A stretch of DNA of 64,000 nt from an uncultured delta proteobacterium (GCA_963789265.1 CAWBKB010000001.1:96001-160000); one strand, 5' to 3'; shown: positions 16,289 to 40,718, counted from the first letter of the stretch. Notes: generated from the letters alone by a model not told the origin. Numbers and translations are program-made.

Positions 16289-16537
16289 TCACTTTGATCC
16301 CCAAATCTCCGTCCTCCCGTGGTCAAAGGTCAGCCGGTCAATTTCTCGTACCAAGTCCGCGTCATTAATGGCTAGATACAAGCTCTTCACGTTCTTTTTC
16401 CTGTCTCCATTTTCCACAATCGCGTCGGCTATGAGAGGATGCAGGCCACTTCTCATGGCGTTGGTCTTGCAGCAATGACGGAGATCAGGAATTCGGGACA
16501 GCGGACCGAATTCAAGGCTTTCTAAGGCTTTTGTCAA
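16289..16537 (-). pseudogene. Tyrosine-integrase C-terminal tail, copy 1
   Basis: PDLRHCCKTNAMRSGLHPLIADAIVENGDRKKNVKSLY...EIWGSK* (box II region with catalytic Tyr); no N-terminal part. Confidence 0.85.
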
Positions 16538-16684
16538 ACCTTCTTCGAAAATTCAGTCACACACTCCCGACTTCGACTGCGTAGAATGTGATGACCAGCG
16601 GTAAGCGCCCCGGCGGCGTCATTTCCCTGTGTTGACGTTGCGTCTCCATTGAGTTTGGGGACCTTATTACATACAATCAGAGAC

Positions 16685-16968
16685 ATGAGAATTCACGAGC
16701 TAGTCTGGCCGGAGGCCGGATTGAACACATTGCCCGTCATGGGGTGAACCCTGAAGAAGTCGAAGAAGTGTGCTTTGGCCATGCTTGGCTGCGGCGGGCC
16801 AAGTGTGCGGGGGCCAACCCAGTGTATTACGTACTCGGCCAGACGGCAGCAGGCCGGTATCTGTTCTGCGTTGTCATACAGTTTCCAGACAGCAAAGGCT
16901 TCCCAGTCACCGCGCGCCCCACGACAGAGCGGGAACAACGGCGATTCAATCAATGGAGAAACACATGA
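16685..16968 (+). CDS. BrnT-like toxin, frameshift near 16710
   Basis: MRIHELVW..RIEHIARHGVNPEEVEE, LGQTAAGRYL, PVTARP.TEREQRRF. Confidence 0.75.
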
Positions 16969-17222
16969 AGGCTACGAACATTCCCAACACGGATTCAATT
17001 TCAGAACTCGCAACTTTTTGGAATACACACGACCTTACCGATTTTGAAGACGAGTTAGAAGATGTGCATGAGGCGGTATTTGAGCGTCCTCCGGAAGAGA
17101 CAGTGACGATACATTTGCCCGCTGGGGACGTCGAGGTGGTGAAACGAATGGCCCAGGCGAAGGGGGTTGGATATGCGGTATTAATCCGGGAATGGGTACT
17201 TGAAAAACTACATCGCGTCTGA
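16965..17222 (+). CDS. CopG/BrnA-like antitoxin
   Basis: ELATFWNTHDLTDFEDELE; C-terminal RHH-like VKRMAQAKGVGYAVLIREWV; ATGA overlap. Confidence 0.8.
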   Translation: MKATNIPNTDSISELATFWNTHDLTDFEDELEDVHEAVFERPPEETVTIHLPAGDVEVVKRMAQAKGVGYAVLIREWVLEKLHRV

Positions 17223-17271
17223 AATCCGGGAACGTTTCAATTTCGACAACTGACAGTGGCATGGCGTCTCC

Positions 17272-17336
17272 AGGAGTTCAGGGTACACCATACCTAATTT
17301 TTGACGTGGAAAGTTGACAGGAATATGGAGCGGCCC
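17272..17336. repeat. Dispersed repeat R3 (GG[G/T]ACACCATACNTAATT core); other copies at 16221-16244, 37919-37983, partial 38590-38620
   Basis: gggtacaccatacctaatttttgacgtggaaagttgacaggaatatggagcggc aligns with ggggacaccttttgtaattcttcaagggggaagctgccacaagtacggagtggc. Confidence 0.65.
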
Positions 17337-17377
17337 GCCGGGGCAACTTGCCCGAGGAACTTGTCCAGCCTAGCTGG

Positions 17378-17453
17378 ATCGCGTCACGCGCAGAGTCAAT
17401 CGGCGGCGACAGACCTTCCTCTGGTCAACGCCCAATTCATGCCTGCCTGCTAA
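17378..17453. repeat. Dispersed repeat R2, copy 2
   Basis: Matches 16127-16202; lies just left of integrase tail copy 2. Confidence 0.75.
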
Positions 17454-17462
17454 GGATTTCAA

Positions 17463-17660
17463 TCATCTCTGCCCCCAAATCTCAGTCTTCCGGTGATCAA
17501 AGGTGAGCCGATCAATTTCACGTAATAAATCCGCGGCACTGATCGTCAAATACAGACTTTTCACATCGTTCTTCCTGTCCCCGTGGCCGACAATTGCATC
17601 AGATACGAGTGGATGCCGGTCGCGCACATCCCGTTGGTCTTGCAGCAGTCCCGGAGATCC
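17463..17660 (-). pseudogene. Tyrosine-integrase C-terminal tail, copy 2
   Basis: Translates DLRDCCKTN...DAIVGHGDRKNDVKSLYLTISAADLLREIDRLTFDHRKTEIWGQR*. Confidence 0.85.
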
Positions 17661-17943
17661 TATTCAAGGCCCACCCGCCCCTTTCGCTATACTGATCGCA
17701 TGTATCCTACATACTACTCCCGGTGATCCTATCCCTATACTAGGAAGTCAAGGCACTATACCTCCGACTCAACAAGTGGTAGATACGCTGGGGGCAAGTT
17801 ACTCAGTGTATCGATCAAGGTCGTCAAAACTCTGAAGCAGAATCCGGTTCAAAACAGAGGGGATGACGTCCTGTCGGCTTTCAGTCTATCGAGATCTGAA
17901 CTTTCTCACATCTGAAGAATTCACTCCTTAAAGTCAGGAGGTT

Positions 17944-19341
17944 TTGGTGGTCCAAGACCAATCCGTCAAATCGCTCTTTCTGTCTCCTCGGTCGGTAGTG
18001 TTTATCGGCGTTCCTCGTAAAAGTGGCCCGGGCACTTTAAATTCGATAGATAATCTCAGAAACTGGGGCTACGAGGGACGAGTCGCAATTGTCCATCCCC
18101 ACGTACGAGAAATAGCGGGAATTCCCGTATTGCCATCCGCCTCCGAATTAAATTCTAAGATTGATCTGGCCATCGTTTCGACTCCAAGAGAAACGGTTCC
18201 TGCGATTATAAGAGAATGCGGCCAAAAGGGCATCAAAGCTGTGATTGTTACCAATCAAGGTTTTGCCGAGTCAGATGGAAGGGGCCAGGAGTTGCAAAGA
18301 GAAATGCTCGCAGAGGCCGATGAGTTCGATATGCGCATTCTCGGGCCCAATACACTCGGCGTATCCAACGCATTCCACCGGTTCAATTCTTCGTTCATGC
18401 CGCTCCATCGGGAAGAGGCCCCCATCGGGCTTATTTGTCAATCCGGCGTCTTCTTTGTGGGCGTGAATCAGCTTCTAGGCGGCATGGGCCTCGCAATAGA
18501 CGTAGGGAACGCCTGCGACGTGACCGCGGTGGACGCTCTGGAATGGTTGGGTGAAGATGAAAGAATACGCGTGATTGCCCTTCATGCCGAGGAAATTCGA
18601 GACGGCAAACGTTTCCTTGAAGTTGCCGAAAGAGTTGGTCGCCGAATTCCCATAATCGCCCTGAAAACGGGGAGGTCTCAAGAAGGGGCTACCGCGGCGG
18701 CCTCGCACACTGGCTCCCTGTCAGTTGATGACAGAATGGTTGATGCTGCTTTTCAAAAGGCTGGGGTGCTTCGCGCTGACGAGACTCAAGACCAGGCGGA
18801 TTTGGTTCGAGGCTTCGTGCGGCTGCCGCCTATGAAAGGCCCCAGAGTAGCCGTGGTGACTCTTACCGGCGCTGGTGGAATTATCCTCCTCGATGCGATG
18901 GAAAGATACGGCCTGGAGTTATCAAGGTTTTCTCCAAAAACCATTAATGGCATTCAGAGATTGTCCCCCGACTGGATGTCGCTCACGAATCCAACGGACA
19001 TTTGGCCGGCCGTAATGAAAAACGGAATGCGCAAGGCCTATACCACCGCCTTGCGAGATGTTTTGTCCGACCCCAACGTGGACGGCGTCCTCTGCGTGGC
19101 TCTTGGCCTTGCAGATGCGGAACAGCAGCACCTGGGGGCCGAGGACGTGATTCAGCAATTATCGGAAAACTCGAGCAAACCAGTCGTGACCTGGGTTTAC
19201 GGACCGCAAGCTGAAGAAACTGCCAGGAGACTGGAGCGATACGGTCGAGTTCTGTCGGTGCGCAGTCTCGAAAGAGGCGTTCGGGTTTTGGCTTCTATGG
19301 CGCGCTATGAGAAATGGAAAGAATCGCAAGCCAGCGAATGA
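17944..19341 (+). CDS. Acyl-CoA ligase (ADP-forming) alpha-type CoA-binding protein
   Basis: FLSPRSVVFIG, GFAE, RILGPNTLG, ICQSG, KTGRS...AASHTG. Confidence 0.85.
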   Translation: MVVQDQSVKSLFLSPRSVVFIGVPRKSGPGTLNSIDNLRNWGYEGRVAIVHPHVREIAGIPVLPSASELNSKIDLAIVSTPRETVPAIIRECGQKGIKAVIVTNQGFAESDGRGQELQREMLAEADEFDMRILGPNTLGVSNAFHRFNSSFMPLHREEAPIGLICQSGVFFVGVNQLLGGMGLAIDVGNACDVTAVDALEWLGEDERIRVIALHAEEIRDGKRFLEVAERVGRRIPIIALKTGRSQEGATAAASHTGSLSVDDRMVDAAFQKAGVLRADETQDQADLVRGFVRLPPMKGPRVAVVTLTGAGGIILLDAMERYGLELSRFSPKTINGIQRLSPDWMSLTNPTDIWPAVMKNGMRKAYTTALRDVLSDPNVDGVLCVALGLADAEQQHLGAEDVIQQLSENSSKPVVTWVYGPQAEETARRLERYGRVLSVRSLERGVRVLASMARYEKWKESQASE

Positions 19342-19749
19342 ACGATATATCATGAGGGGGCCTTTCTTCAGAGCAAAAAGACTTCTACAGCATCACTCTT
19401 GCTCGATTCCTCAGCCATCGTTAACGTTAAGAACGTAGCTGCCGGTCATTGTAACAGCAGTCCTGCCCGTGCAAGCATTCCTGCAAAGTTTAACGGACCC
19501 TGAGAGAAGGTAATCAACGGAGGTCCTGCACGGATCGTCCGCATTGCTGAGGTCGCGGCCGTCACCAATGGACAGTTTCAGAATCAGGATTCTATGAAAT
19601 TCGACGCGTCAGGAGCGCTAGGTTACTAAAATCGGAAAAAAGAGACAGCGATGTTGCGATTTTATCTTGACTTTGGTTCTGCTATCCCTTAGTCTACGAT
19701 TCACGTAGTCATGAGGTTGAAACGTTACGATTCCCGGAGGGTCGATGGG

Positions 19750-20235
19750 ATGAACGGTGAGGGTCCAATTGACAGCACCGACAGGGAGATCATGTCGATC
19801 CTGCAAAAGAATTCTCGGGTTACGAATACCGAAATCGCCAGGCGCCTGGACATCTCCGAAGGAACGGTACGCAACCGGATCAAAAGACTGGTGGACGAGC
19901 GCATCATTCGGAATATTACAGTGGTCAACCCTGAGACTCTTGGGTACCAGGTTCATGTAATTGTTGGCGTCCAAGTTGAGTACAAGAAACTGCCGGAAGT
20001 CACGAAACAGCTTAAGGAAAAGGAGGCGGTCCACTTCCTGGGAATTGCTGCGGGGAGGTATGACCTGATGGTGATAGCCTTTTTCCGTAATACCGAAGAG
20101 CAGCTTGCCTTTTTTACCAATGAGCTGGCTTCCATAGACGGCATAGTGCGATTGGAGACCTTCACAGTACTACAGATGCTCAAGACAAAGTATCTCTGGG
20201 GTGTTTCGGTGGCCGAGTCCAAAGCGGCCGACTAA
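19750..20235 (+). CDS. Lrp/AsnC family transcriptional regulator
   Basis: DSTDREIMSILQKNSR, EIARRLDISEGTVRNRIKRL, GRYDL. Confidence 0.92.
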   Translation: MNGEGPIDSTDREIMSILQKNSRVTNTEIARRLDISEGTVRNRIKRLVDERIIRNITVVNPETLGYQVHVIVGVQVEYKKLPEVTKQLKEKEAVHFLGIAAGRYDLMVIAFFRNTEEQLAFFTNELASIDGIVRLETFTVLQMLKTKYLWGVSVAESKAAD

Positions 20236-20293
20236 ATTGGAACGGAGACTGCAAAGTTGACCGCGGTGGTAAAGCTGGAGTCGGAGAGGGTGC

Positions 20294-20698
20294 ATGATCA
20301 AGAAAATTAAACACATAGGTTTGGCGGTGGAGAACCTTGCCGAAGCCAGCGATTTTTTCCGGAAGCACTTCCAAGTCTCGGTTTCGGAACGTGAACATTT
20401 CGGAGAGCTGATTTTCTCTTTCATCCCTGTAGAAGGCGCCCACCTGGAGCTTCTCCAGTCCACTTCAGGCGACGGGCAAATCGCGAAGTTCATTCAGAAA
20501 AAGGGTCAAGGTGTTCACCACATTGCCTTTGAGGTAGACGATATTCAGGCCGAATTGGACCGTTTGAAGAGCGAAGGCCTAACCATGATAAATGAAAAGC
20601 CTTACCTGAACGCACACCAAGACTTGGTGGCCTTTCTTCACCCGAAGTGTACGTACGGTGTTCTTATAGAGCTTATACAGACCAAGAAAAACGCATGA
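20294..20698 (+). CDS. mce: Methylmalonyl-CoA epimerase family
   Basis: IKHIGLAV, LELLQ, IAKFIQKKGQGVHHIAFEVDDI, AFLHPK, GVLIEL. Confidence 0.88.
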   Translation: MIKKIKHIGLAVENLAEASDFFRKHFQVSVSEREHFGELIFSFIPVEGAHLELLQSTSGDGQIAKFIQKKGQGVHHIAFEVDDIQAELDRLKSEGLTMINEKPYLNAHQDLVAFLHPKCTYGVLIELIQTKKNA

Positions 20699-20761
20699 CG
20701 GAACAGCTCGGAAATCATCTGAATCCATCACTTGGCGCCGGCCAAACGGGATAGAGGTATC

Positions 20762-22327
20762 ATGGGAATCACCAAGACCTGGGATAGCGAACTGGCCAAA
20801 CTGCAATCCAAGGATTCTGAAGCTCGGCTGGGAGGAGGAGAAGACCGGCTTCAGAAACAGCGGGACATGGGAAAAATGACGGCCAGGGAACGCATTGACC
20901 ACATTTTGGATCCGGATAGCTTCGTCGAACTCAATATGTTGGCCGAACATCAGTGCCGCGATTTTGGCATGGACAGAAAGAAATTTGTCGGTGACGGCGT
21001 GGTAACAGGCTATGGAACTATAGAAGGTCGCAAGATCTACATTTATTCCGAAGACGACACGGTCTTAGGCGGATCCACCGGTAAGGTCCATGGAGCCAAG
21101 ATCCATTACGTTCTGCGGTTGGCGCGCGAGCACATGGTGCCGGTGATCGGGTTAAACGATTCCGCTGGGGCACGCATCCAGGAAGGGATGGACAATGTGT
21201 ACGGTATCACTGGTATGTTTTACCAGAACACTCTCAATTCCGGCATTGTCCCCCAGATCGCTGCCATCATGGGAGCATGCACGGGCGGAGCGGCCTATTC
21301 AGCCGCTTTGTGCGACTTCATCGTTCAAGTAGAAAAAACTTCGCACATGTTCATCACCGGACCTGCTGTGGTCAAGGTGGTGACAGGCGAGAATGTGGCA
21401 TTTGAAGATTTGGGCGGAGCGAAAGTTCATGCCACGAAATCCGGAGTAACCCATCTGACAGCCAAGGACGACCAACAATGCCTCGACCTGATAAAGCGGC
21501 TGCTGTCCTATCTTCCCCAAAACAACCTCGAAAAACCTGAAAAGAAGCCAACGAACGATCCCGTGGATCGAAGCACCTCGGAATTGGTCGAGATCGTTCC
21601 GATCCAAATGTCTCAGACTTATGACATGAAGAAGGTCATTCTGACCATCGTGGACGACAAAGACTTCTTTGAAATTCAACCTGCTTTCGCCAAAAACATA
21701 GTGATCGGCTTTGCCCGCATGGGAGGGCGGACGATCGGCATCGTAGCCAACAACCCCAGGGTTCTAGGCGGTTGTTTGGACATAGATTCCTCTGACAAAG
21801 CATCGCGTTTCATACGGACGTGCGACGTCTTCAATATCCCTATGGTCACTCTCGTAGATGTGCCTGGATTTCTGCCGGGAGTCCACCAGGAGCACGGCGG
21901 CATCATACGCCACGGAGCGAAGCTGCTCCACGCTTGGACCGAGGCCACAGTGCCCAAGATTTCCTGCATCCTCCGAAAAATGTACGGCGGCGCAATCCCG
22001 GCCATGGGAGTACACCAAATCGGCTTCGATCAGGTATTTGCTTGGCCGTGCGCGGAGATGCAGATGCTTGGCGCCGAGCCGTCCGTCAAAATCCTGTACC
22101 GCCGCGAGCTCGGGGAGGCAGAAGATTCAGAGGCGTTTTTGCAGCAGAAGATCGAAGAATATCAAAACCTCTATTTAACGCCTTACCATGCCGCGTCACT
22201 TGCGGTCATCGACGCTGTTATTCATCCCGCGGACACCCGCAAGAGAATCATTTCCGCTTTGGAGATTCTGGAAGACAAGGTCGCCGAAAAAAGGCCGTTT
22301 CGGAAACACACAAATATTCCGCTGTGA
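20762..22327 (+). CDS. Acyl-CoA carboxyltransferase beta subunit (PccB/MmdA-like)
   Basis: GKMTARERI, GDGVVTG, DSAGARIQEG, MFITGP, DVPGFLPG, GIIRHGAKLL, KHTNIPL. Confidence 0.92.
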   Translation: MGITKTWDSELAKLQSKDSEARLGGGEDRLQKQRDMGKMTARERIDHILDPDSFVELNMLAEHQCRDFGMDRKKFVGDGVVTGYGTIEGRKIYIYSEDDTVLGGSTGKVHGAKIHYVLRLAREHMVPVIGLNDSAGARIQEGMDNVYGITGMFYQNTLNSGIVPQIAAIMGACTGGAAYSAALCDFIVQVEKTSHMFITGPAVVKVVTGENVAFEDLGGAKVHATKSGVTHLTAKDDQQCLDLIKRLLSYLPQNNLEKPEKKPTNDPVDRSTSELVEIVPIQMSQTYDMKKVILTIVDDKDFFEIQPAFAKNIVIGFARMGGRTIGIVANNPRVLGGCLDIDSSDKASRFIRTCDVFNIPMVTLVDVPGFLPGVHQEHGGIIRHGAKLLHAWTEATVPKISCILRKMYGGAIPAMGVHQIGFDQVFAWPCAEMQMLGAEPSVKILYRRELGEAEDSEAFLQQKIEEYQNLYLTPYHAASLAVIDAVIHPADTRKRIISALEILEDKVAEKRPFRKHTNIPL

Positions 22328-22363
22328 GCTCTGGAAAAGAAGTCACGGGCAAGGTGGAGACGT

Positions 22364-24031
22364 ATGGACAAGATTAGGGAAAAACTGGCGTTTTGGGAGG
22401 AGTCCACATTGAAAAAAGCTGTGGACGGCTCCGGTGAAAAGAAAGAGATCTTCACTACAGACAGCGGGATCCCGGTCAAGAATTTGTATACGCCCCTGGA
22501 CTTGGAAGGTATGGACTACAACCAAGACTTAAGTTTTCCCGGAGACTATCCCTACACTCGAGGGGTCTATCCTTCGATGTATAGGGGCCGCCTCTGGACC
22601 ATGAGGCAATACGCGGGCTTTGGAACAGCCGAAGAAACGAACAAAAGATTCCGTTATCTTCTGAACCAAGGGTCCACGGGCTTGTCCATGGCTTTCGATC
22701 TGCCCACTCAACTCGGATATGACTCGACCGACCCCTTGGCAGAAGGCTCTGTAGGCCGGGTAGGCGTTGCCGTAGACACTCTGGCGGATATGGAAACGAT
22801 ATTTCAAGGCATTCCTTTGGATAAGGTGTCTACGTCGATGACCATAAACGCCACTGCTCCGATTCTTTTGGCCATGTACATTGCAGTTGGGGAAAAACAG
22901 GGTGTGTCGCGGAATCAGTTGATGGGAACTACCCAAAACGACATTCTCAAGGAATTCATTGCACGAGGAGCATACATCTTTCCGCCCGAGCCAAGTCTCA
23001 GATTGACGCTGGATATCATCGAGTATTGTTTTCAGCACGTTCCAAGGTGGAACACGCTCAATATCGCCGGGTATCACATCCGAGAAGCGGGTGCTAGTGC
23101 AGTTCAGGAGCTAGCTTTCACACTGGCCGATGCCATCACGTATATCGAAAAAGCGCAGGAGAGAGGGCTGGAGGTTGACGATTTTGCCCCGAGGCTCTCG
23201 TATAGCCTGGGCTGTTATCGAGATTTGTTTGAAGAGGTAGCGAAATTTAGGGCTGCCAGACGTCTATTTGCCAAAATCATGAAAGACCGCTTTGGAGCCA
23301 AAGACCCGAGGAGCTGCCTCTTCCGGACGTTCAGTGGCTCCTGCGGCTCCACGCTTGTCTCCCAACAGCCAATAAATAACATTGTCAGGGTTACCATGCA
23401 CGCCCTCATGTCGATTCTCGGCGGACATCAGGCTATTCACACTGCCTGTTGGGATGAGGGTTACGCAATCCCCAGCCAGGATTCCGCAACGATTGCACTG
23501 AGGACACAGCAGATACTTGCCTACGAATCCGGCTTGACTAGCACAATCGACCCGTTAGGGGGCTCCTACTACGTGGAAGCGCTGACCAACGAAATCGAAG
23601 AGAAAAGCCAGGAGTATCTGGACAAAATCGACAATATGGGTGGAATGCTCTCGGCCATCGAGGACGGTTACATTCAACGGGAGATCCAGGAATCCAGCGT
23701 TCGGTCTCAACAAGAGATCTATAGCGGTGAGAAAGTCTTTGTAGGGGTGAACAAGTTTAGGGACTCCGAAGAAGCGACGGAAGACCATGATTTCTTTGAA
23801 CTGGATTCCGGTGTGGAGGATCGGCAGAAAGCCAAACTCGTCCAGCTCAGGGCCGAACGGAGCACTGCGAAAGTGGGGGCTGCGCTTACGGCCCTCAATG
23901 AAGCCGTCGACCGCAAAGAAAACCTCATGCCTTTCATACTGGAAGCGGTCAGGAGCTATGCCACGGTAGGAGAGATTTGCGGGCTCATGCGGGAAGCCTG
24001 GGGCGAGTTTAAGGCCCCGATTTACATCTAA
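22364..24031 (+). CDS. B12-dependent acyl-CoA mutase large subunit (methylmalonyl-CoA-mutase family, divergent)
   Basis: PYTRGVY, WTMRQYAGFG, GLSMAFDLPT, QNDILKE, GYHIREAG, DPLGGSYYVE. Confidence 0.92.
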   Translation: MDKIREKLAFWEESTLKKAVDGSGEKKEIFTTDSGIPVKNLYTPLDLEGMDYNQDLSFPGDYPYTRGVYPSMYRGRLWTMRQYAGFGTAEETNKRFRYLLNQGSTGLSMAFDLPTQLGYDSTDPLAEGSVGRVGVAVDTLADMETIFQGIPLDKVSTSMTINATAPILLAMYIAVGEKQGVSRNQLMGTTQNDILKEFIARGAYIFPPEPSLRLTLDIIEYCFQHVPRWNTLNIAGYHIREAGASAVQELAFTLADAITYIEKAQERGLEVDDFAPRLSYSLGCYRDLFEEVAKFRAARRLFAKIMKDRFGAKDPRSCLFRTFSGSCGSTLVSQQPINNIVRVTMHALMSILGGHQAIHTACWDEGYAIPSQDSATIALRTQQILAYESGLTSTIDPLGGSYYVEALTNEIEEKSQEYLDKIDNMGGMLSAIEDGYIQREIQESSVRSQQEIYSGEKVFVGVNKFRDSEEATEDHDFFELDSGVEDRQKAKLVQLRAERSTAKVGAALTALNEAVDRKENLMPFILEAVRSYATVGEICGLMREAWGEFKAPIYI

Positions 24032-24059
24032 AGATTTGAGACGTCGAAAGGTCGCTCCT

Positions 24060-24449
24060 GTGGAACGAAAGATTCGAGTGTTGCTCGGTAAGGTCGGACT
24101 GGATTCTCATGACCGCGGTATCAAGATTGTGGCCCGTTTCCTACGCGATGCCGGCATGGAAGTCATATATGTCGGGCTACGGACCAAGGTGGAGGAGCTG
24201 GTCAATGCAGCAGTTCAAGAGGATGTCGATGTGGTAGGCCTGAGTTTCTTAGCCGGTGACCACATGGTTCTGGTGCCCAAGGTGCTAACCGGTTTGAAAG
24301 ACAAAGGGAAAAACGATGCTCTGGTCCTTGTGGGCGGCATCATCCCGAAAAAGCACATACCGGACCTGTTGGCGTTAGGAGTGACAAAGGTCTTCTTGTC
24401 GGGAAGGCCCCCGACGGAGATCGTTGAGTGCATACAGGAGCATGTTTGA
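24060..24449 (+). CDS. Cobalamin-binding small subunit of the mutase
   Basis: GLDSHDRG (DxHxxG), LRDAGMEVIY, VGGIIP. Confidence 0.92.
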   Translation: MERKIRVLLGKVGLDSHDRGIKIVARFLRDAGMEVIYVGLRTKVEELVNAAVQEDVDVVGLSFLAGDHMVLVPKVLTGLKDKGKNDALVLVGGIIPKKHIPDLLALGVTKVFLSGRPPTEIVECIQEHV

Positions 24450-24564
24450 TGCCGTACGCCCAGTCGCGGGGGCATGACTTTGTGGCCTCGCAAACCATCA
24501 CTCAGTCTCTGACCATCACAGTACTTTTACACAGTCCAGAATTGGAAAGGGAGGAAAAACAAGG

Positions 24565-25494: not shown

Positions 25495-25506
25495 AGAGGG
25501 ATTTTC

Positions 25507-30747: not shown

Positions 30748-30774
30748 GACTCACCTTCCTTTGACGGAGGCTTC

Positions 30775-31898: not shown

Positions 31899-31972
31899 CG
31901 CCTGTCAATCGTTCAATGGTCCAAACGCAATTTTTCATTTTCTCTGTGTAACAAGACTGCAGGGAGGACACC

Positions 31973-33540: not shown

Positions 33541-33678
33541 GCCTGTCACGCCGGAGGTCGCGAGTTCGAGTCTCGTCGCTCCCGCCACTTAACCGCCTGT
33601 AATCACAGGGAAGCCTAGACAAACAGGCTTCCCTGCTTTCGTTTATTGGGATGATTCAGGGCTCCCAAAGGGCTCCCA
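33541..33678 (+). mobile_element. att-like site 2: tRNA-Asp(GTC) 3' half (33541-33587) plus the same hairpin and direct repeats as site 1
   Basis: 47-bp core differs from 12317-12363 at one base; downstream ~90 bp similar; no tRNA 5' half. Confidence 0.85.
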
Positions 33679-33890: not shown

Positions 33891-35615
33891 ATGTTGAAGA
33901 ACTCGGAGTCCTTTAAATTGAATCATATCCAGCAACCCGCGGTGCTAACTATGGCGACGGTTGAAGCTGTCCTAGATCAGCTTTTCGACAAGGGAGTTTT
34001 ATTCCACCTTGATGATGAAGGCCTCACCAGACATTTGGCAGCGAGCTTTTTTGGGAGAAATGTGTGGCATTTGCCATTGGAAGAGATCCGCGAATTAATC
34101 TTCAACTTGGACGGCTGCCCTCCCAATATTCCTTCTGATATGCAGAAATTTCCTGAATGGGTCCGAAAAGAATTATTCCTTTTTGAGTGGCTTCCAAGAA
34201 AATCCCTGGCAGAGCTTTACGACTGGGCATCAAAGGATTTGCGAGATATTGAAAACAATATTGCCAATTGCAACCGCGCTATTCATGAATTAGAGCATCG
34301 TGAGTCCAAAGCGGATGCGGACGATTACGAAGTCAGATTCCATAAATATTTTCTGGAATTGAACAAGACGGCAAAGGACGAAATAGTTGATGTCTTGGCA
34401 CATAGCATCCATGAAAAAGCGCTCCGAAATTCCTATTGGGCGGATCGAATTTACAAAGCGCTAGTCAACTTTGCCGTCTGGACGTTCCACTTAAACCCAC
34501 CGATGTTCGACCCCGCCGCCTTCTCCACTATCAGACATAACTTTCGTGATTTGGCGATCCCGGAATGGCGTGAAATGGAGCGACTGTACAAAGAACCGGA
34601 TAAGACGGAATTTGATCAACGCCTCGAAACGTATATTTCGGAAATAAGACCAGCAGACCAGATTCGGTGTTTGATTGACGAGCACCATCTGCTCGCTGCA
34701 CGCAAAACTATTCTCCAACAAATGCTGGGGGCTTACGAGCGAAAGGAATTTGCGTTATTCATGAATGCCGCGGCTACACAGGTCGAGGGAATCATTGAAG
34801 ACTGTTGCCTGCTCTCGGGGTTATCTCTTGATAAACTCCGAAAGAGCGGCAGCATCAGCAGCAAGGTTTACGAGCTCGTCAATGATCCAAGTGTTCGGAT
34901 TGATAATGTCTATTATGCCTTCAAGTTTCCTGTGGTAAGAAACCGAGTTGCCCATGGTCAAACGGTCCCGACGGAAATGCGTGATACTCATTTGCTGTTA
35001 CTGGACCTATATGATTGTTGCAGGATGGTGTGCGAACACCCTGGTACCACGAATGCCTTAGTGAAGTTGCTGCGGCGAGCGACACCTGGCAAAGCAACTA
35101 TTGCTGATGTAGTTGAGTTCGCAACCATTTATGCAGAAACCAATGGAGAGTCTCCGAATCAGTTCTATGGCCTAGATGAGGAATTTACAGAATTCACCTT
35201 GCTTTTGGACGATCAAGTCCTGTGGAGTTTTATGCAGGCATTACTTAATGGTCGCCAGTTTGACGAAATTGACAATGGATTACGTTTGATCGGAAGGAAA
35301 CTTAAGAAGATTATCCATACTCGAAGCACCTCGTGTGTTCGTTTGCTCGCAGGATTGGGTGAGAGGGGTAAAGGTAAATTTAGGTGTGATCGGTTCATGA
35401 CCGCTGTCCGTAGCTGGCAAGGTCACGATCATTTGGTGAAAAACCTCGATGAACTTCGTCGTTTATTTGTCCGTTTGCTTCAGGCACGTGAGAAGTGGCT
35501 GAGGACTTCCGAAATCGCTTATGCCCGGTGGGAGGAACGAGGTCGCACTCACGGGCGAGATTGGGAGGACTGGTTCGCTGCAGAAAAGAAGCTTGGGGTC
35601 GGTAACAAGAGGTAG
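33891..35615 (+). CDS. Hypothetical protein with HEPN-like RxxxxH motif and C-terminal DUF2934-like segment (start may be 33951)
   Basis: 574-aa ORF, AT-richer than neighbours; RNRVAHG; C-terminal EIAYARWEERGRTHGRDWEDWFAAE. Confidence 0.6.
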   Translation: MLKNSESFKLNHIQQPAVLTMATVEAVLDQLFDKGVLFHLDDEGLTRHLAASFFGRNVWHLPLEEIRELIFNLDGCPPNIPSDMQKFPEWVRKELFLFEWLPRKSLAELYDWASKDLRDIENNIANCNRAIHELEHRESKADADDYEVRFHKYFLELNKTAKDEIVDVLAHSIHEKALRNSYWADRIYKALVNFAVWTFHLNPPMFDPAAFSTIRHNFRDLAIPEWREMERLYKEPDKTEFDQRLETYISEIRPADQIRCLIDEHHLLAARKTILQQMLGAYERKEFALFMNAAATQVEGIIEDCCLLSGLSLDKLRKSGSISSKVYELVNDPSVRIDNVYYAFKFPVVRNRVAHGQTVPTEMRDTHLLLLDLYDCCRMVCEHPGTTNALVKLLRRATPGKATIADVVEFATIYAETNGESPNQFYGLDEEFTEFTLLLDDQVLWSFMQALLNGRQFDEIDNGLRLIGRKLKKIIHTRSTSCVRLLAGLGERGKGKFRCDRFMTAVRSWQGHDHLVKNLDELRRLFVRLLQAREKWLRTSEIAYARWEERGRTHGRDWEDWFAAEKKLGVGNKR

Positions 35616-35823
35616 AATTTGGCTATACCCACCCTGATCACGGACAATTCGACGGAGCGGCGCACCCGTGTGCTCTCGCCCGATCACAGACCTCTTCGAT
35701 AACAGCAGTTAGCCATTGTATACTGCATCGCATTGCGCTTAGGGATTGAAAGGCTTCACAAAACCAATGCAATCGTCTCTTGTGTTGAATTCTTCAATCT
35801 TCCTGTCATCGAAGGAGAACCCT

Positions 35824-35887
35824 TCAATTTCTCCCCCCAAATCTGCGTCTATGATCGTCACTTACACGGTTTTCACGTCCTTTTTCC
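35824..35887 (-). pseudogene. Tyrosine-integrase tail, copy 3 (short, degenerate)
   Basis: tcaatttctccccccaaatctgcgtc...ttttcacgtcctttttcc aligns with the other tails. Confidence 0.55.
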
Positions 35888-36035
35888 AGTAACCCAACGG
35901 CGGAGTTCAAGAATTGGGGCATCGGTTGTGGGCATGAGCGTGCCAATACAGAGTTCACGAACTGTGCTATAGTGGAAATTCGCAGGGAATCAGTGGGGAA
36001 CTTTGTTTTTGGAGTTAAAAGGAGGATTTGGTTCC

Positions 36036-36398: not shown

Positions 36399-37738
36399 GT
36401 GCACCCAGATGTTAAGGATATGGTGAGCAACGCAAAGCGGATCTCCGGAGAAGATGGAGTTGGCGAAACGCTCCTGACCGTGGACTTTGAAACTTTCGCA
36501 GCGCATCTATTCGAAAGCGGCTTGTGCCTGGAGTATCAAAACAGAGGCCTCGATAATTCGTTGAGATCATCGGGAGTGGTCATATGTTTAACCCTGTATC
36601 TGATTTCGGAGCCGAATTGCGTCAAGGACGAGTCCTTTGCCTGATGCCTATTGAGCGCATTCGTTTCGATGAACAGCTTGAAGGGCCAAACGGCGCAATG
36701 TTCTATCCCGCGGAAACCATCGATTTCCGCACGCTTCGAGTGGTATCAGACCCAGATAGGGAGCTGGAGGATTTCCGGCATCGACAAAACCCGTGGGACG
36801 AAGACGATATTACATCGGGCATTTCAGGGTTAAATGCAACGGTGTTGCAATCTTGTCCTCTAATTGCTCGGCCGATCGACCTGAACTGGTCATCCTTTCT
36901 GAGCATGCACCCTGCTGAACACAAGGACCTTCTGCCAGGGTTAGTGGGCAACTTCGAAGAATCGATGGACCTCGTGCGGTATCATGGCGCACGGCTCGAT
37001 CTTCCTGAAACTCTCCCAGGTCGCGTGGGCCTCATCTCACTGCCCGAGTGGTTCTCGGCTGCTCTACTCTACAATCTGCAAGACCACGAGAGCTATATTT
37101 TGGGCGGACGTCATTTCATAACCGCCGTAATCACAGGAGTTGGGCTAGAGTTGGAAGACTGGGCACCCTATCCAGTCTTGAACTGTGGGGAAGTAGGGAA
37201 TATTGTCAGGTGCGCTTTGTCACTTTACACTCGAGCGCTTGAAGGCAGCGACAATACCGTCAAGTTCATCCAGATAATGTCGCTCCTTGAATTCCTCGCC
37301 ACACCTGGAGAATACAGGGGCTCCGATGCCACCCGGCAAGCAGTCGGTTTACACGTTGCGAATACTAAGCGAGAATATCATCAACTGAGTGAAAGACTCA
37401 GAAATCTTCAAGGAGCGAAATCGCCCGAGGGGCGCCACGTAGGATACCGCACACGGGTGGTGCATTGTGGCGAAAGTGTCGAGAATGTCCTGGCTCCTGG
37501 AGAGAGTTTGGGGGCCTTGTTTGGTGAACTAGACCGCTATATTCATATAATCATAGACTTGTTAATCTCGAAAGCAAACGACCCATGGGCAAAAGTGGTG
37601 GAGTGGAGGGATGACCGTAAGAGAAACCCTCGGTTTGTGACAGTGAACACTGAGGCGGGTTGGCGCTCACGCTCAGGCATATGCCCCCACGCCCAAAGGC
37701 CTTATTATCTTTATCCCCAAATCTCCGTCTTCCCGTGA
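36399..37738 (+). CDS. Apea-like HEPN-domain protein; apparent frameshift near 36600, true end possibly near 37640
   Basis: ALSLYTRAL, KFIQIMSLLEFL, YRTRVVHCG (RxxxxH); ORFs 36399-36644 and 36584-37738 overlap. Confidence 0.55.
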
Positions 37739-37912
37739 TCAAAAGTCAGCCGGTCAATTTCTCGCACCAAGTCTTCGTCGTTGATTGTGAGATACAGGCT
37801 TTTCACGTCCTTTTTCCTATCTCCATCGCCTGCAATCGCATCGGCTATAAGCGGATGCAGGCCGCTTCTCATGGCGTTGGTCTTCCAGCAATGTCGGAGA
37901 TCATGGAATCCC
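37705..37912 (-). pseudogene. Tyrosine-integrase C-terminal tail, copy 4
   Basis: GFHDLRHCWKTNAMRSGLHPLIADAIAGDGDRKKDVKSLYLTINDEDLVREIDRLTFDHGKTEIWG*. Confidence 0.9.
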
Positions 37913-38113
37913 GAAGTTCCGAGTTCCGGGGACACCTTTTGTAATTCTTCAAGGGGGAAGCTGCCACAAGTACGGAGTGGCACATAGCCCACGTCGGTGG
38001 TTGTTCCGGCCTATCCTCACGACATCACACGGAAAGACAATCTGTATCTCCTGCCCTATGGATACTGTATAATTATACTTAGGCGTTAAGGCCGCACGCA
38101 TAGGAGAGTCAAA

Positions 38114-38302
38114 ATGAATACAGCAAAGAGTGAAGTCGAATCTCTGCTACGGAGACTCCCGGATGACTGTACGTTGGAGGATGTCCAATACCACCTATAC
38201 GTGGTGGAAAAAATCCGTAGAGGGATTGAGTTAGCCGACACCCGAGGCACACTTACTCAAGAAGAAATTGAGAGGCGGCTGAACAAGTGGACTACGACGT
38301 AG
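38114..38302 (+). CDS. Putative antitoxin
   Basis: LPDDCTLEDVQYHLYVVEKIRRG; overlaps a ParE-like gene. Confidence 0.75.
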   Translation: MNTAKSEVESLLRRLPDDCTLEDVQYHLYVVEKIRRGIELADTRGTLTQEEIERRLNKWTTT

Positions 38303-38562
38303 CTTGGGCACCGGCGGCATTGGAGGATGTCGAGTCCCTGGCCGACTTCATAGCACGGGATTCCGAATTCTACGCCAGAGCCGTAGTAGAGAAGATACTT
38401 GATAGGCAAGAAAACCCAAAGACTTTCCGTCCGCCGGACGCATCGTGCCTGAGCTTGAGGATGAAACCGTCCGCGAGCGCTTTGTGTACAGCTACCGAGT
38501 GGAGGGCAATAGGATCGCGATCCTGGCAATCATTCATGGCAAACGGCTTGCTGATTTACTGA
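38287..38562 (+). pseudogene. RelE/ParE toxin, frameshifted and internally shortened
   Basis: WAPAALEDVESLADFIARDSEFYA; other frame GRIVPELEDETVRERFVYSYR..ILAIIHGKR. Confidence 0.7.
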
Positions 38563-38693
38563 GTGACAGAATCAAGTACTCGTGAACGTGGAGTTCGGGG
38601 TGAACTTCAGGGTACACCACTTGCACTGTTGACGAGCAATCCCTTCAGATCCCAGGGTGGCATATGGGACAATCTGCGCGCGTAGACTTGCTG

Positions 38694-38790
38694 CATGGTC
38701 TACAATCGCATCGGCTATGAGAGGATGCAGGCCGCTTCTCATCGCGTTGGTTTTTGCAACAATGCCGGAGATCGTGACTTCGAGGCTTAG
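38694..38790 (-). pseudogene. Tyrosine-integrase tail, copy 5 (box II segment only)
   Basis: PKPRSHDLRHCC / KTNAMRSGLHPLIADAIVDH. Confidence 0.8.
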
Positions 38791-38932
38791 GCACGTCTTC
38801 TTGCGGGTAAATCCGACGAACTCAGCGACCATCACAAGGAGAATCTTTAAAATCCGAAAACATTTCGGCCAAGTCTTGACTGCCTGAAAGTGGCGGATTA
38901 GCATCGGACTTGTTTGACAGGAGAAACCGCAA

Positions 38933-39163
38933 ATGGCCCCTGATTTTCACGACATTGAAGAACAAGCAAAGAGCCTTCCGCCTGAAGAAAGGGCTCGCCT
39001 GGCCGAGTCTCTCCTTGAATCGCTTCAGCAGGAAGGTATCGCTGAAGTCGAGGTTGCCTGGGCGCAGGAAATTGAGGCGCGAGTTGCAGCACTGCGCCGC
39101 GGCGAAGAAGAACTGATCGATGGCGAAACCGTCTTGGCCGAGCTGCGACAAATCGCTCGATGA
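38933..39163 (+). CDS. Addiction-module antitoxin (same family as 11745-11972)
   Basis: LPPEERARLAESLLESL...AWAQEIEARV. Confidence 0.8.
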   Translation: MAPDFHDIEEQAKSLPPEERARLAESLLESLQQEGIAEVEVAWAQEIEARVAALRRGEEELIDGETVLAELRQIAR

Positions 39164-39399
39164 AAACCATTCGGTTCTTGGCTGCATCTCGCCTTGAGTT
39201 GCTGGCCGAGGTTCTGCGCTATAATGAGATAGAGGCGGGTTTAGGCATCAAATTCGCCCACGCTTTTGAACGGGCTCTCGCGATAGCGGTCCAATTCCCG
39301 CTTGCCGGTTCCCCAGGCCCTGCGGCAACACGAAAGGTCATTCTCAAAGGCTTCCCATTTTCCGTGTACTACCTGGGAGGAGAGAGAATCGGATCGTAA
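39160..39399 (+). pseudogene. RelE/ParE toxin, 3'-truncated where it meets the convergent DUF89 gene
   Basis: GLGIKF, FPLAG, GFPFSVYY, then runs antisense into the next gene without the AVAH..YW C-terminus. Confidence 0.7.
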
Positions 39400-40253
39400 A
39401 TTTTGGTCTCAAAATAGTTGCTTATGGGCACACACTTGCTCATGAGCATGAACAGGATTTTGTCATGAAGATGAGTTTCTTCCCCGATAGAGTCGAAGTT
39501 TCCCACGCCCTTGGACAGTATCAGGTCGGCTTCTTCCGTAAGCTTCTTCATTTTGTCTGAACATCTGGCCGACACCGTACCCGGCAGAGGCCCGTTAATT
39601 CCGTTCTCTACAATCTCGGCGACTTTATCCATTTCGACAATGGTGGCTTCCTGCGCTGTGGCATCATTCAGGGTCGGGACGTTTCTCACTGCAAAGATGA
39701 CTTCCAGGTCGAAGATGCTCTTCACTGTCTCGATAAACAACCGGTCAAAAACTATTTCACCGGAATTGTCCCCGAGAATGAGTACAACACGGCTGCTTTG
39801 GAGCCTGCGCTCCAAATCCGCAAGGCTTTCGGAGAGGATCGGTTTGCGGAGTTGCTGCCGTATGAGCGGCTCAACCTCGATGGAACCTCCGGACCACATG
39901 ACATCGAGAGAATTTCCGATGATGGCAAGATGGGCAGCCGTGTACAGTCTGTCTTTCGATTCCTCGACCAACTCCTTGAGCCACGGATAAAGCTCCATAG
40001 CCCTTGCATTTTGCCTATCTTTCATGGCTTGAAAGGGATCGGAGGTGCCCAAAAACTGGGAGATCTTCACCAATGCGGTTTCGATGACATCTGGACTGGT
40101 CACATCCCACGCAGGGCCTCTTAGGCTCGGCAATTGCATTAACTCTGAAAGCAGTCCCTTGATTTGCGCTTCGTCAGAGGTCAGCTCTCTGATTGCTGAC
40201 AGAAGTGCCTTGTGGATGCATGAGATACAGTCCGGCTGTAGGAGCACGTTCAC
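39369..40253 (-). CDS. DUF89 / ARMT1-like damage-control phosphatase
   Basis: DCISC, DPFQAMK, IIGNSLD, GDNSGEIVFD, PTLNDAT, ILSKGVGNFD, KC. Confidence 0.85.
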   Translation of the reverse strand: MNVLLQPDCISCIHKALLSAIRELTSDEAQIKGLLSELMQLPSLRGPAWDVTSPDVIETALVKISQFLGTSDPFQAMKDRQNARAMELYPWLKELVEESKDRLYTAAHLAIIGNSLDVMWSGGSIEVEPLIRQQLRKPILSESLADLERRLQSSRVVLILGDNSGEIVFDRLFIETVKSIFDLEVIFAVRNVPTLNDATAQEATIVEMDKVAEIVENGINGPLPGTVSARCSDKMKKLTEEADLILSKGVGNFDSIGEETHLHDKILFMLMSKCVPISNYFETKIYDPILSPPR

Positions 40254-40582
40254 CTCTTACAAGTTCAACGCAACATGGGTGCGAAACGTCTGAAGCATCC
40301 TCTCCAAGCCCAATCAGCGGTCGAAAAGTCCACGAGAGCTCCGCATACGGCTGCCACTTTCTTAAAATCGCCTTTATGCTTGGAGCAGAAACTCACGTAT
40401 TTCTCGCGCGGTATCGAGACTTGTGCTCAACTCTCTCTCCCAATTATTTTCACAGTTTCGTCGCTGGGACTACCCGTGTCAAGCCATTGGGTTAACGGAG
40501 CAATCTTCTGCAATGACGTGGACACGGTGAATATTGGCACCCACACTCGCAGCATGGTCGCCCCTGCGAGAAATGAACCTCA

Positions 40583-40718
40583 TCACTTTTGTCCCCAAAT
40601 TTCCGTCCTCCCGTGGTCAAAGGTCAGTCGGTCAATTTCTCCCACCAGGTCCGCATAGTTGATCGCAAGATACAAGCTTTTCACATCCTTCTTCCTACCT
40701 CCATGCCCTTCAATCGCG
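40583..40718 (-). pseudogene. Tyrosine-integrase C-terminal tail, copy 6
   Basis: AIEGHGGRKKDVKSLYLAINYADLVGEIDRLTFDHGRTEIWGQK*. Confidence 0.85.

What the first reader, a model, noticed from the sequence alone, without database searches (positions are those of the whole stretch)
16289..40718. Six co-oriented integrase 3' tails alternate with small cargo modules: an integron-like array built from integrase ends
Seen: tails at 16289, 17463, 35824, 37705, 38694 and 40583, all on the minus strand. They encode parts of the same ~65-aa tyrosine-recombinase C-terminus (HDLRH...GH...catalytic Y...EIWG*). Four start at the stop codon and four reach the HDLR motif, three ending there. No N-terminal integrase sequence was recognised anywhere in the window. 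Copies differ largely at synonymous positions, so they come from different integrase alleles rather than local duplication. Single modules sit between them: BrnT/CopG TA; hypothetical+HEPN; ParE TA; ParE TA+DUF89; then Fur-katG. Inference: either the integrase tail itself is a recombination site for serial cassette capture, or related islands repeatedly integrate and collapse to tail-plus-cargo. Either would be an unusual way to stockpile TA and defence genes.
Basis: partly seen in the sequence, partly recalled or inferred. Interest (0 to 1): 0.8.

Follow-up and report, generated by a model that had tools for sequence, protein, structure and literature searches.

The report
Integrase stumps in a tRNA-Asp island graveyard
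The repeated integrase ends are real, but they look like the leftover stumps of many mobile islands that entered one tRNA-Asp hotspot and then lost their mobility genes while keeping toxin-antitoxin and other cargo, rather than a new gene-capture machine.

Summary
The six minus-strand integrase 3' tails are real. Two more lie outside the window on the same contig, all eight co-oriented. They differ mostly at synonymous sites (dN/dS 0.03-0.10) and several carry stops or frameshifts, so they are pseudogene remnants of different integrase alleles.

Two further fragments lie upstream on the contig. The genome's only intact tRNA-Asp sits on another contig, 144 bp from, and convergent with, an intact integrase of the same family.

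Desulfomonilaceae relatives show tRNA-Asp followed by fragments and co-oriented tails. In two relatives, four tails are fused at the D-L-R-H codons to the tRNA-Asp 3' end; this coding stretch resembles the att core.

Best reading (0.68): serial integration at tRNA-Asp, then loss of the mobility module and integrase 5' part. The stump and cargo (toxin-antitoxin pairs, ARMT1/DUF89, a metabolic cluster) remain.

An integron-like system is not supported:
- there is no head integrase;
- tail boundaries vary;
- the copies are decaying;
- cargo orientation is mixed.

It is not excluded (about 0.12), because a conserved trailer with a 23-nt repeat follows many tails.

The parts
12313..12454 (+). tRNA-Asp(GTC) 3' fragment (12313-12363, tRNA positions 27-77) plus about 90-nt trailer; copy A of a 138-nt repeat
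   Evidence: blastn-short to the intact tRNA-Asp of contig C3, 98% over 51 nt; 138-nt repeat 91% identical to copy B; Rfam tRNA hit 12289-12360, 31.5 bits; ARAGORN calls no tRNA here
12931..15968 (+). Cargo between fragment A and tail 1: choloylglycine-hydrolase family, cytochrome P460, S9/esterase-like protein
   Evidence: Pfam CBAH 4.7e-72, Cytochrome_P460 4.5e-29, Peptidase_S9 1.6e-06
16217..16239 (-). 23-nt dispersed repeat (REP-like) about 45 nt after the stop of tail 1
   Evidence: 3 mismatches to the 23-mer; same spacer plus motif behind tails in G085 and at C1:66351
16289..16550 (-). Tail 1: integrase residues about 322-411 plus stop; conserved His replaced (VENGDRK)
16744..17222 (+). 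BrnT-like (weak) / CopG-BrnA antitoxin pair
   Evidence: CopG_antitoxin 1.3e-11; BrnT_toxin E 0.03, below cut-off
17277..17299 (-). REP-like 23-mer about 190 nt after the stop of tail 2
17462..17680 (-). Tail 2: residues about 326-411 with a 24-nt internal deletion and frameshift upstream of HPL
17944..33169 (+). 16-kb metabolic cargo: CoA ligase, Lrp/AsnC-like ORF, epimerase-like ORF, carboxyltransferase, methylmalonyl-CoA mutase subunits, amidohydrolase, nitroreductase, AMP-ligase, acyl-CoA dehydrogenase, split SDR, MFS
   Evidence: ORFs; Pfam run only for 17944-19341, 30775-31419 and 31973-33169; the other names are read from the translations and are not tool results
33541..33678 (+). tRNA-Asp 3' fragment (33541-33587, positions 31-77, 100%) plus trailer; copy B
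33891..35615 (+). 574-aa ORF of unknown function with C-terminal DUF2934
   Evidence: Pfam DUF2934 6.5e-08; no NCBIfam or PADLOC family
35793..35890 (-). Tail 3: degenerate, in-frame stops, about the last 35 codons
36003..37738 (+). 131-aa ORF (weak YjhX_toxin-like) and 384-aa ORF without family; the latter overlaps the end of tail 4 by 28 nt
37700..37923 (-). Tail 4: residues about 340-411 plus stop (37711-37713); conserved His replaced (AGDGDRK)
37924..37946 (-). REP-like 23-mer abutting the 5' end of tail 4
   Evidence: 4 mismatches; 16-nt exact GGTGTCCCCGGAACTC
38114..38562 (+). Antitoxin-like ORF plus ParE toxin
   Evidence: ParE_toxin 3.6e-05, 24.7 bits vs cut-off 23; no family for the 62-aa ORF
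38692..38790 (-). Tail 5: frameshifted central piece (residues about 345-376), 3' end missing
38933..40253 (.). Unstab_antitox antitoxin, 79-aa partner ORF without family, ARMT1-like (DUF89) phosphatase
   Evidence: Unstab_antitox 2.7e-15, ARMT1-like 1.1e-48; TIGR02574
40582..40717 (-). Tail 6: last 42 codons plus stop; its counterpart in same-genus genome G001 (95% identical block 39249-40717) reaches back to about residue 323
40825..43840 (+). PerR/Fur-family regulator and KatG next to the last tail; katG is 85-96% identical in 4 same-genus genomes from window 41567-41608 onward

Best explanation
The window crosses a zone in which integrative islands aimed at tRNA-Asp have piled up and decayed, in a Desulfomonilaceae genome. 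Each island brought a tyrosine integrase whose 3' end points toward the tRNA. Later deletions removed the mobility genes and the integrase 5' part. What remains is a short 3' stump next to cargo that the cell keeps: toxin-antitoxin pairs that resist loss, an ARMT1/DUF89 phosphatase and a metabolic cluster. Shown: the tails are pseudogene pieces of different integrase alleles; tRNA-Asp 3' fragments are interspersed with them and convergent with them; the same layout follows intact tRNA-Asp genes in relatives. Inferred: that the stump survives because it is the edge of the mobility module next to the cargo. One demonstrated truncation route is recombination between a tRNA-Asp att fragment and the D-L-R-H codons of the integrase gene. 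Those codons (GAYCTCCGGC, preceded by CGAAYTC) resemble the reverse complement of the tRNA-Asp variable loop and T arm. Whether the integrase or plain microhomology makes that joint is not known.
For: (1) Four full tRNA-Asp 3' fragments (47-51 nt, starting in the anticodon stem-loop) lie on the plus strand of C1 at 65255, 69621, 108313 and 129541 (window 12313 and 33541), convergent with all 8 tails. (2) G000 has one tRNA-Asp gene, C3:c16417-16493, 144 bp beyond the stop of an intact convergent integrase at C3:15117-16271, which is 55-56% identical to tail 4 over the last 64 residues. (3) In same-genus genomes I paired 12 integrase 3' ends with tRNA-Asp fragments 120-162 nt away, from the coordinates. 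(4) Relatives show tRNA-Asp followed by tails. G015 has tRNA-Asp, 2 fragments and 3-4 co-oriented tails in 10 kb. G004 has tRNA-Asp, 2 tails and 1 fragment. G085 has tRNA-Asp, 6 fragments and 3 tails in 23 kb. G014 (5 tails) and G023 (3 tails) also have co-oriented runs. These loci were picked because they had tail hits. (5) Four fusions of the tRNA-Asp 3' end to a tail at the DLR codons were found: G004:C29:3226-3263, G085:C1:129302, G085:C1:139473, and L050:1956-1990 with a tail of the other subfamily. (6) dN/dS is 0.03-0.10 with dS 0.6 to above 1.5 among six full DLRH-to-stop sequences (window tails 1 and 4 plus four from relatives), so the copies are not local duplicates. All G000 tails fall in one clade (support 99/96) with tails of 8 other genomes and one near-full-length gene of G071. 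(7) Decay is visible: stops, frameshifts and loss of the conserved His in tails 1 and 4. (8) Tail 6 is shorter than its 95%-identical counterpart in G001, so the 5' side goes on shrinking.
Against: Between fragment A and fragment B there are two tails, and after fragment B four, so there is not one tail per att fragment as simple tandem integration predicts. In the window no tail sits 90-160 nt from a fragment; cargo of 2-4 kb lies between. The clear tRNA-tail fusions occur in only 2 of 122 class genomes, and none is clear in the window; tail 5 matches the T arm at 21 of 27 positions by my own count of the printed sequences, but that stretch also reads as native integrase codons. The intact tRNA-Asp is on another contig, and its link to the start of C1 is only inferred from orientation; no contig-end overlap joins C3 to C1. 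The excess of 3' over 5' remnants is not fully explained. A conserved trailer with a 23-nt repeat after many tails hints at a cis-acting role. Contigs of related strains at 93-96% identity carry the same tail4-TA-tail5-TA-DUF89-tail6 order, so at that depth the array is stable and tells nothing about how it was built.
Confidence: 0.68

Rival explanations
1. Integron-like capture. The tail, with its conserved trailer and the 23-nt REP-like motif, is a cis-acting site. Through it, integrase-less cargo units are inserted one after another by an integrase supplied in trans.
For: The 3' edge of most tails is constant while the 5' edge varies. A homologous 45-75-nt trailer ending in the 23-mer follows 7 of the 31 distinct tail 3' ends collected, in three genera, and homology stops after the motif. 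Two full-length genes of G071 have the motif about 150 nt after the stop, again where homology ends. Direct copies of the motif bracket the BrnTA-plus-tail-1 unit (17277 and 16217), and a copy abuts tail 4. Two contigs of one metagenome run join the trailer of fragment B directly to the stop of tail 4 (33679/33687 to 37715/37714), an indel that ends exactly at a tail boundary. Most inter-tail cargo is toxin-antitoxin pairs.
Against: No intact integrase lies at either end of the array or anywhere in C1:50-210 kb. Tails 3 and 5 are degenerate, and tail 5 lacks the supposed site. Tails 4 and 6 have no motif behind them. Cargo genes are mostly antisense to the tails. In G023 the near-full-length gene lies 3' of the tails, whereas in G019 and G071 it lies 5'. 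The 23-mer is a genome-wide repeat of about 35 copies that also brackets truncated Y1-transposase-like ORFs. The metagenome joint rests on sides of only 29 and 31 nt at 90% likeness. The matching pattern was found in 0 of 70 family genomes.
Confidence: 0.12
2. Gene-splitting integration as in phage Mx8 or virus SSV1. The att core lies inside the integrase gene at the HDLRH codons, integration into tRNA-Asp (or a fragment of it) splits the gene, and each tail is the C-terminal half left at one junction.
For: Four joints of tRNA-Asp 3' end to tail lie exactly in GACCTCCGGC. By my count of the sequences printed, native integrase DNA upstream of and across HDLRH resembles the reverse-complement tRNA at about 17 of 24 positions. 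Integrases that extend across attP are known for Mx8 and SSV (passages seen in PMC4383910; PMC6070905; PMC5861418).
Against: The reciprocal joint (tRNA 5' part plus the reverse complement of the integrase N-part) was found in 0 of 70 family genomes. No N-terminal halves lie in the region. Full-length genes of the tail clade exist in chromosomes, in G019 and G071. The integrase lacks the acceptor-stem part of the tRNA, so such an integration would destroy the single tRNA-Asp gene. There is no sequence similarity to Mx8 Int (blastp E 4.2).
Confidence: 0.07
3. Local tandem duplication of one tail-bearing segment.
For: The copies are co-oriented and clustered.
Against: dS between neighbouring tails is 0.6 to above 1.5 with dN/dS at or below 0.10. 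Tail 4 is closer to tails of other genera (91% G009, 89% G010, 88% G071) than to its neighbours (78-82%). The cargo between tails is unrelated.
Confidence: 0.02

Closest known systems
Tandem genomic islands at tRNA genes (tDNA plus displaced 3' fragment signature, as catalogued by Islander, PMC4383910; passages seen)
   Same: Co-oriented 3' fragments of one tRNA gene that start at the anticodon loop; tyrosine-integrase genes next to the target; variable cargo; several islands in a row.
   Different: In the window every integrase is reduced to a 3' stump. There are more stumps than tRNA fragments, and cargo lies between stump and fragment. Islander reports only 4 arrays of three or more islands among 3919 islands (Table 1 passage), whereas this genome has 4 fragments and 8 stumps.
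Mx8 intP/intX and SSV1 integrases, whose coding sequence spans attP (PMC6070905 passage; PMC5861418 passage; Tojo 1996 and Magrini 1999 could not be read)
   Same: An integrase coding sequence takes part in recombination with the chromosomal att site, leaving the gene's 3' part at a junction. That Mx8 targets tRNA-Asp is my recollection and was not seen in any text here.
   Different: No reciprocal N-terminal junctions (0 of 70). No sequence similarity to Mx8 Int. Here the joint lies inside the catalytic domain at HDLRH and occurs in only 2 of 122 genomes.
Integrons and integrase-less cassette arrays (recalled; not tested against a model)
   Same: A row of small units, many of them toxin-antitoxin pairs, separated by a repeated element.
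   Different: No IntI-type integrase, no attI, no attC-like imperfect inverted repeats seen, mixed gene orientation, and the repeated element is a decaying coding fragment.
Accretion and cis-mobilisable elements of streptococcal ICEs (recalled; not read here)
   Same: Elements that have lost their recombination genes stay flanked by att sites next to later arrivals.
   Different: Flanking att sites are not present around each unit here.

Membership tests
tRNA-targeting genomic island array | Displaced 3' fragment(s) of a tRNA gene, co-oriented, starting at a crossover subsite (anticodon loop) | tested here: met
   Window 12313-12363 and 33541-33587, plus C1:65255 and C1:69621; 98-100% identity to tRNA-Asp positions 27/31-77
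tRNA-targeting genomic island array | Intact target tRNA gene at the head of the array | tested here: inconclusive
   The only tRNA-Asp gene is on contig C3, 16.4 kb from its end; its orientation fits a join to C1 but no overlap shows it. Met in relatives G015, G004 and G085
tRNA-targeting genomic island array | A tyrosine integrase gene inside each island | tested here: not met
   Only 3' stumps in C1:50-210 kb; an intact gene is present at the C3 head
Integron | Intact integrase adjacent to the array with an attI site and a promoter reading into the cassettes | tested here: not met
   No intact integrase in the window; most cargo is antisense to the tails
Integron | attC sites (imperfect inverted repeats) at each cassette boundary | not tested
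   No attC model was run. The repeat finder was run for direct repeats only. Rfam at E<=0.1 gave only the tRNA hit
Mx8/SSV-type gene-splitting integrase | C-terminal gene part joined to the target's 3' part at one junction | tested here: inconclusive
   4 such joints in 2 relatives; none clear in the window
Mx8/SSV-type gene-splitting integrase | N-terminal gene part joined to the target's 5' part at the other junction | tested here: not met
   Pattern search found 0 of 70 family genomes
Tyrosine recombinase (Phage_integrase, PF00589) | HxLRH, GH and catalytic Y motifs in the C-terminal part | tested here: met
   Translations of tails 1 and 4 align with full-length genes that pass PF00589. The tails alone are too short to score (0 families)

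The most novel reading that the evidence does not exclude
The integrase stump together with its conserved 45-75-nt trailer and the 23-nt REP-like motif is a working cis-acting site. Integrase-less units, mostly toxin-antitoxin pairs, are captured and stacked behind tRNA-Asp by integrases supplied in trans from elsewhere in the genome. That would be a cassette array built on ordinary island integrases rather than on an integron integrase.
Probability: 0.12. Interest if true: 0.8.

Novelty: new variant of a known kind. Interest (0 to 1): 0.4.

Why it matters
If the main reading holds, the locus shows how a tRNA hotspot turns mobile islands into fixed chromosomal cargo. The mobility half is shed, the integrase is cut near its catalytic HDLRH codons, and addiction modules and metabolic genes stay. 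The likeness between the integrase's own HDLRH coding sequence and its tRNA-Asp target suggests that such integrases carry a weak spot for self-truncation, and this can be tested at the bench. For annotation, rows of short integrase 3' ORFs in Desulfomonilaceae should be read as markers of old island boundaries, not as genes.

Tried and rejected
- Reciprocal tRNA-5'/integrase-N junction: pattern search gave 0 of 70 family genomes.
- Trailer end directly followed by tail end: pattern search gave 0 of 70 family genomes.
- Fusion pattern across the class: only 2 of 122 genomes.
- Synteny of window 11000-19500 and 33400-44000 in same-genus genomes: only katG (85-96%), fur (75-76%) and the ParE-DUF89-tail6 block in G001 (95%) matched over length. 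No empty-site comparison was possible.
- N-terminal-only integrase pieces in relatives: of 4 checked, 2 were frameshifted full-length genes and 2 ended at residues 298 and 348 without a tRNA joint.
- The search for related loci in genome contigs: returned only the query's own record as a close relative.
- Phage database protein search: only distant integrases at or below 27% identity. Mx8 Int is unrelated in sequence.
- PADLOC: no defence family for the 574-, 131-, 384- and 294-aa ORFs or the BrnT-like ORF.
- Earlier findings of this scan: nothing for this genome, and one unrelated note on another genome.
- Tail tree: too few columns (64) to resolve relations inside the tail clade.
- Metagenome contigs: parts of the stretch without cover are no evidence.
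- Papers: Tojo 1996 and Magrini 1999 are not held.
- Tools not used: structure prediction, complex prediction and the large protein searches. The question was one of DNA anatomy.

Full report
**Observation**

The ORF listing and tblastn confirm minus-strand pieces of one tyrosine-integrase C-terminus (HDLRH ... GH ... Y ... TFDHGKTEIWG) at about 16289-16550, 17462-17680, 35793-35890, 37700-37923, 38692-38790 and 40582-40717. The window is G000:C1:96001-160000.

Against the whole 6.06-Mb genome the longest tail finds 8 copies in C1:66-198 kb, all on the minus strand. Only two weak stray fragments lie elsewhere. Two intact genes of the family are at C3:15117-16271 and C5:383400-382093.

No N-terminal integrase remnant was found in the region by any of four searches:
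- tblastn with the two own-genome integrases;
- tblastn with a closer 432-aa relative from G019, where the window matched only at residues 336 and above;
- an ad hoc HMM over six-frame ORFs of C1:50-210 kb, which was rough because two of its five input sequences contained stops, and which hit only positions 379-426 at E<1;
- PF00589, with 12 matches in the genome and none in the region.

**The copies are old and decaying**

- Among six full DLRH-to-stop sequences (tails 1 and 4 plus four from relatives), dN/dS is 0.03-0.10 with dS from 0.62 to saturation.
- In the last 36 codons, pairs among tails 1, 2, 4 and 6 give 0.04-0.09.
- The divergence therefore arose while the sequences were parts of working genes of different alleles. 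Local duplication is excluded.
- Tail 3 has in-frame stops.
- Tail 5 is a frameshifted middle piece.
- Tail 2 has a 24-nt deletion and a frameshift.
- Tails 1 and 4 have lost the conserved His of the GH motif.

The repeat finder showed a 138-nt direct repeat at 12317-12454 and 33541-33678, 91% identical. Its first 47-51 nt are the 3' part of tRNA-Asp(GTC), from the anticodon stem-loop to CCA. Rfam scores the first copy as a tRNA (31.5 bits); ARAGORN calls none. Two more such fragments lie at C1:65255 and C1:69621.

All four fragments are on the plus strand and so convergent with the tails. The genome's single tRNA-Asp gene is C3:c16417-16493. It lies next to tRNA-Val and 144 bp beyond the stop of the intact, convergent C3 integrase. 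Orientation would allow reverse-complemented C3 to precede C1. This is an inference, since no contig-end overlap shows it.

**Relatives**

A record title places G019, labelled same family, in Desulfomonilaceae. The tail-4 protein matched 21 of 24 same-family genomes and 0 of 16 of the sister family; these matches include full-length genes.

From the coordinates I paired 12 integrase 3' ends in same-genus genomes with tRNA-Asp fragments 120-162 nt away. tRNA-Asp is therefore a busy target in this genus.

In loci chosen because they had tail hits, the window's layout recurs:

| Genome | Layout |
|---|---|
| G015 | tRNA-Val, tRNA-Asp, two fragments and 3-4 co-oriented tails in 10 kb |
| G004 | tRNA-Asp, two tails, one fragment |
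| G085 | tRNA-Asp, six fragments, three tails in 23 kb |
| G014 | five co-oriented tails |
| G023 | three co-oriented tails |

All G000 tails fall in one supported clade (99/96) with tails of eight other genomes and one near-full-length gene of G071. Relations inside the clade are unresolved. Tail 4 is 88-91% identical to sequences of other genera but only 78-82% identical to its neighbours.

**A demonstrated truncation route**

In G004 the reverse-complement tRNA-Asp 3' end (38 nt, 100%) runs straight into ATTGTTGCAAGACCAAC, the H-C-C-K-T-N codons of a tail. The shared letters at the joint are GACCTCCGGC, which are the D-L-R-(H) codons.

G085 has two more such joints, plus one with a tail of the C3-like subfamily. 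Native integrase DNA of the tail clade reads CCCCGAATTCAC GAT CTC CGG CAC there. The reverse-complement tRNA reads ACTCGAACTCGC GAC CTC CGG CGT; by my count of the printed sequences about 17 of 24 positions agree.

A deletion between a distal tRNA fragment and this internal look-alike would remove the integrase 5' part and everything upstream. It would leave fragment-tail-cargo, which is the order seen in G085.

Two results limit this route. The reciprocal joint was not found in 0 of 70 family genomes, which argues for deletion rather than Mx8- or SSV-like splitting. The route is also rare: clear fusions occur in 2 of 122 class genomes, and none is clear in the window. Whether an integrase or microhomology makes the joint cannot be told from sequence.

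**Window boundaries**

| Tail | 5' boundary or state |
|---|---|
| 1 and 2 | reach back to about residue 322-330 |
| 4 | stops 22 nt before HDLRH, where a 23-nt dispersed repeat abuts it |
| 5 | begins near HDLRH |
| 3 | about the last 35 codons |
| 6 | the last 42 codons |

The counterpart of tail 6 in G001 lies in a block 95% identical over window 39249-40717 and reaches back to about residue 323. Short tails can therefore arise by further loss.

In 25 fragments of the window and relatives, local alignments start between residues 251 and 379. The apparent peak at 344-351 is partly an artefact, because conservation begins at HDLRH.

**Why stumps and not heads?**

In the one full element seen (G019), a serine recombinase, unknown ORFs and an HTH_17 protein lie upstream of the integrase. 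The cargo lies downstream and is followed by a further tail. If that layout is typical, the integrase 3' end is the edge of the mobility module next to the cargo. Loss of the module then leaves a 3' stump. This step is inferred.

**The trailer and the 23-mer**

Seven of the 31 distinct tail 3' ends collected are followed by a homologous 45-75-nt trailer ending in AATTAAGTATGGTGTCCCCGGAA. These are tail 1, C1:66351, two in G085 and three in G014. Homology stops after the motif. Two full-length G071 genes have a like motif about 150 nt after the stop, again at the end of homology.

In the window, copies lie at 16217, 17277 and 37924, with a weaker one at 16023, all in tail orientation. The motif has about 35 copies genome-wide at four or fewer mismatches. 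Inverted pairs of it bracket truncated ORFs that weakly resemble Y1 transposases (Pfam E 0.047, below cut-off).

I therefore read the motif as a REP-like dispersed repeat. Its fixed place behind the tails keeps the cassette reading alive.

**Strain comparison from metagenome contigs**

Contigs at 93-96% identity cover tail 4 through the antitoxin beyond tail 5 (37715-39305), and the 3' end of the 79-aa ORF through DUF89 up to just short of tail 6 (39332-40568), in the window's order. At this depth the array is inherited as a block.

Alignments stop at the stop codon of tail 4. In one run, two contigs join the trailer of fragment B (33679/33687) directly to 37715/37714. This would mean that a relative has the tail right behind the fragment trailer and lacks the 4-kb block holding the 574-aa ORF, tail 3 and the 131- and 384-aa ORFs.

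The evidence is weak. The matching sides are only 29 and 31 nt at 90% likeness, and the corresponding pattern was found in 0 of 70 family genomes.

**Cargo**

- CopG/BrnA antitoxin with a weak BrnT partner.
- ParE with a small upstream ORF.
- An Unstab_antitox antitoxin with a 79-aa partner of no family.
- An ARMT1/DUF89 phosphatase.
- A PerR/Fur regulator and KatG.

HEPN was not confirmed for the 384-aa ORF, and no PADLOC family was hit.

**Comparison with known systems**

The closest known kind is the tandem tRNA-linked island array (Islander paper, passages). Integrases whose coding sequence crosses attP are known for Mx8 and SSV (passages). Mx8 Int is unrelated in sequence, and the original Mx8 papers could not be read.

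I searched the library twice for Mx8 integration. I did not search for integrase-stump arrays as such, so I make no claim that they are unpublished.

**Verdict**

This is a real and non-random feature. It is best read as the fossil record of repeated island integration at tRNA-Asp, with a striking bias toward integrase 3' stumps. It is a variant of a known kind and of moderate interest. A cassette-capture role for tail plus trailer remains a minority possibility.

Noticed in passing
window 16217-16239, 17277-17299, 37924-37946 (minus); genome-wide, e.g. C7:233182-233594: A 23-nt dispersed repeat (AATTAAGTATGGTGTCCCCGGAA) has about 35 copies at four or fewer mismatches. Inverted pairs 110-170 bp apart, and pairs bracketing truncated ORFs with a weak Y1-transposase likeness, suggest a REP/RAYT-type system in this genome.
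   Followed up: partly
G000 C8:107847-107864 and C5:390992-391015: Two further truncated tRNA-Asp pieces lie on other contigs. The C8 piece ends exactly after GCCGGAGGTC, the same 10 nt at which tails are fused to the tRNA in relatives. Both lie near short GGGACCGAAAAGGAC-type direct repeats that could be arm-type sites.
   Followed up: partly
window 12472-12925, 11245-11383 and 17671-17795: Dispersed repeats with several copies in this genome and tens of copies in same-genus genomes. One sits right after the trailer of fragment A and one at the 5' edge of tail 2. Family not determined.
   Followed up: partly
window 30775-31546: A short-chain dehydrogenase gene appears split into two frames (30775-31419 and 31421-31546), possibly by a frameshift inside the metabolic cluster.
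   Followed up: no
window 41567-44057: katG has 0.636 G+C in the 42-43 kb bin against about 0.50-0.53 around it. It is 85-96% identical in four same-genus genomes, while the adjacent fur-family gene is only 75-76% identical or unmatched. A boundary of conservation lies at about 41567-41608.
   Followed up: partly
window 44763-45762 and 49694-49920: Direct repeats with 99-nt spacing, as expected of 33-residue protein repeats, occur in two minus-strand regions downstream of katG.
   Followed up: no
window 36584-37738: The 384-aa ORF of no known family runs 28 nt into the reverse complement of the end of tail 4, so its last residues are read from integrase-derived DNA.
   Followed up: no
L015 (G019:C204:16000-34000): The one full-length element of the tail clade examined carries a serine recombinase and an HTH_17 protein upstream of the integrase. 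Downstream are Fe-S proteins, a reductive-dehalogenase-like protein and an FMN dehydrogenase, followed by a further tail.
   Followed up: partly
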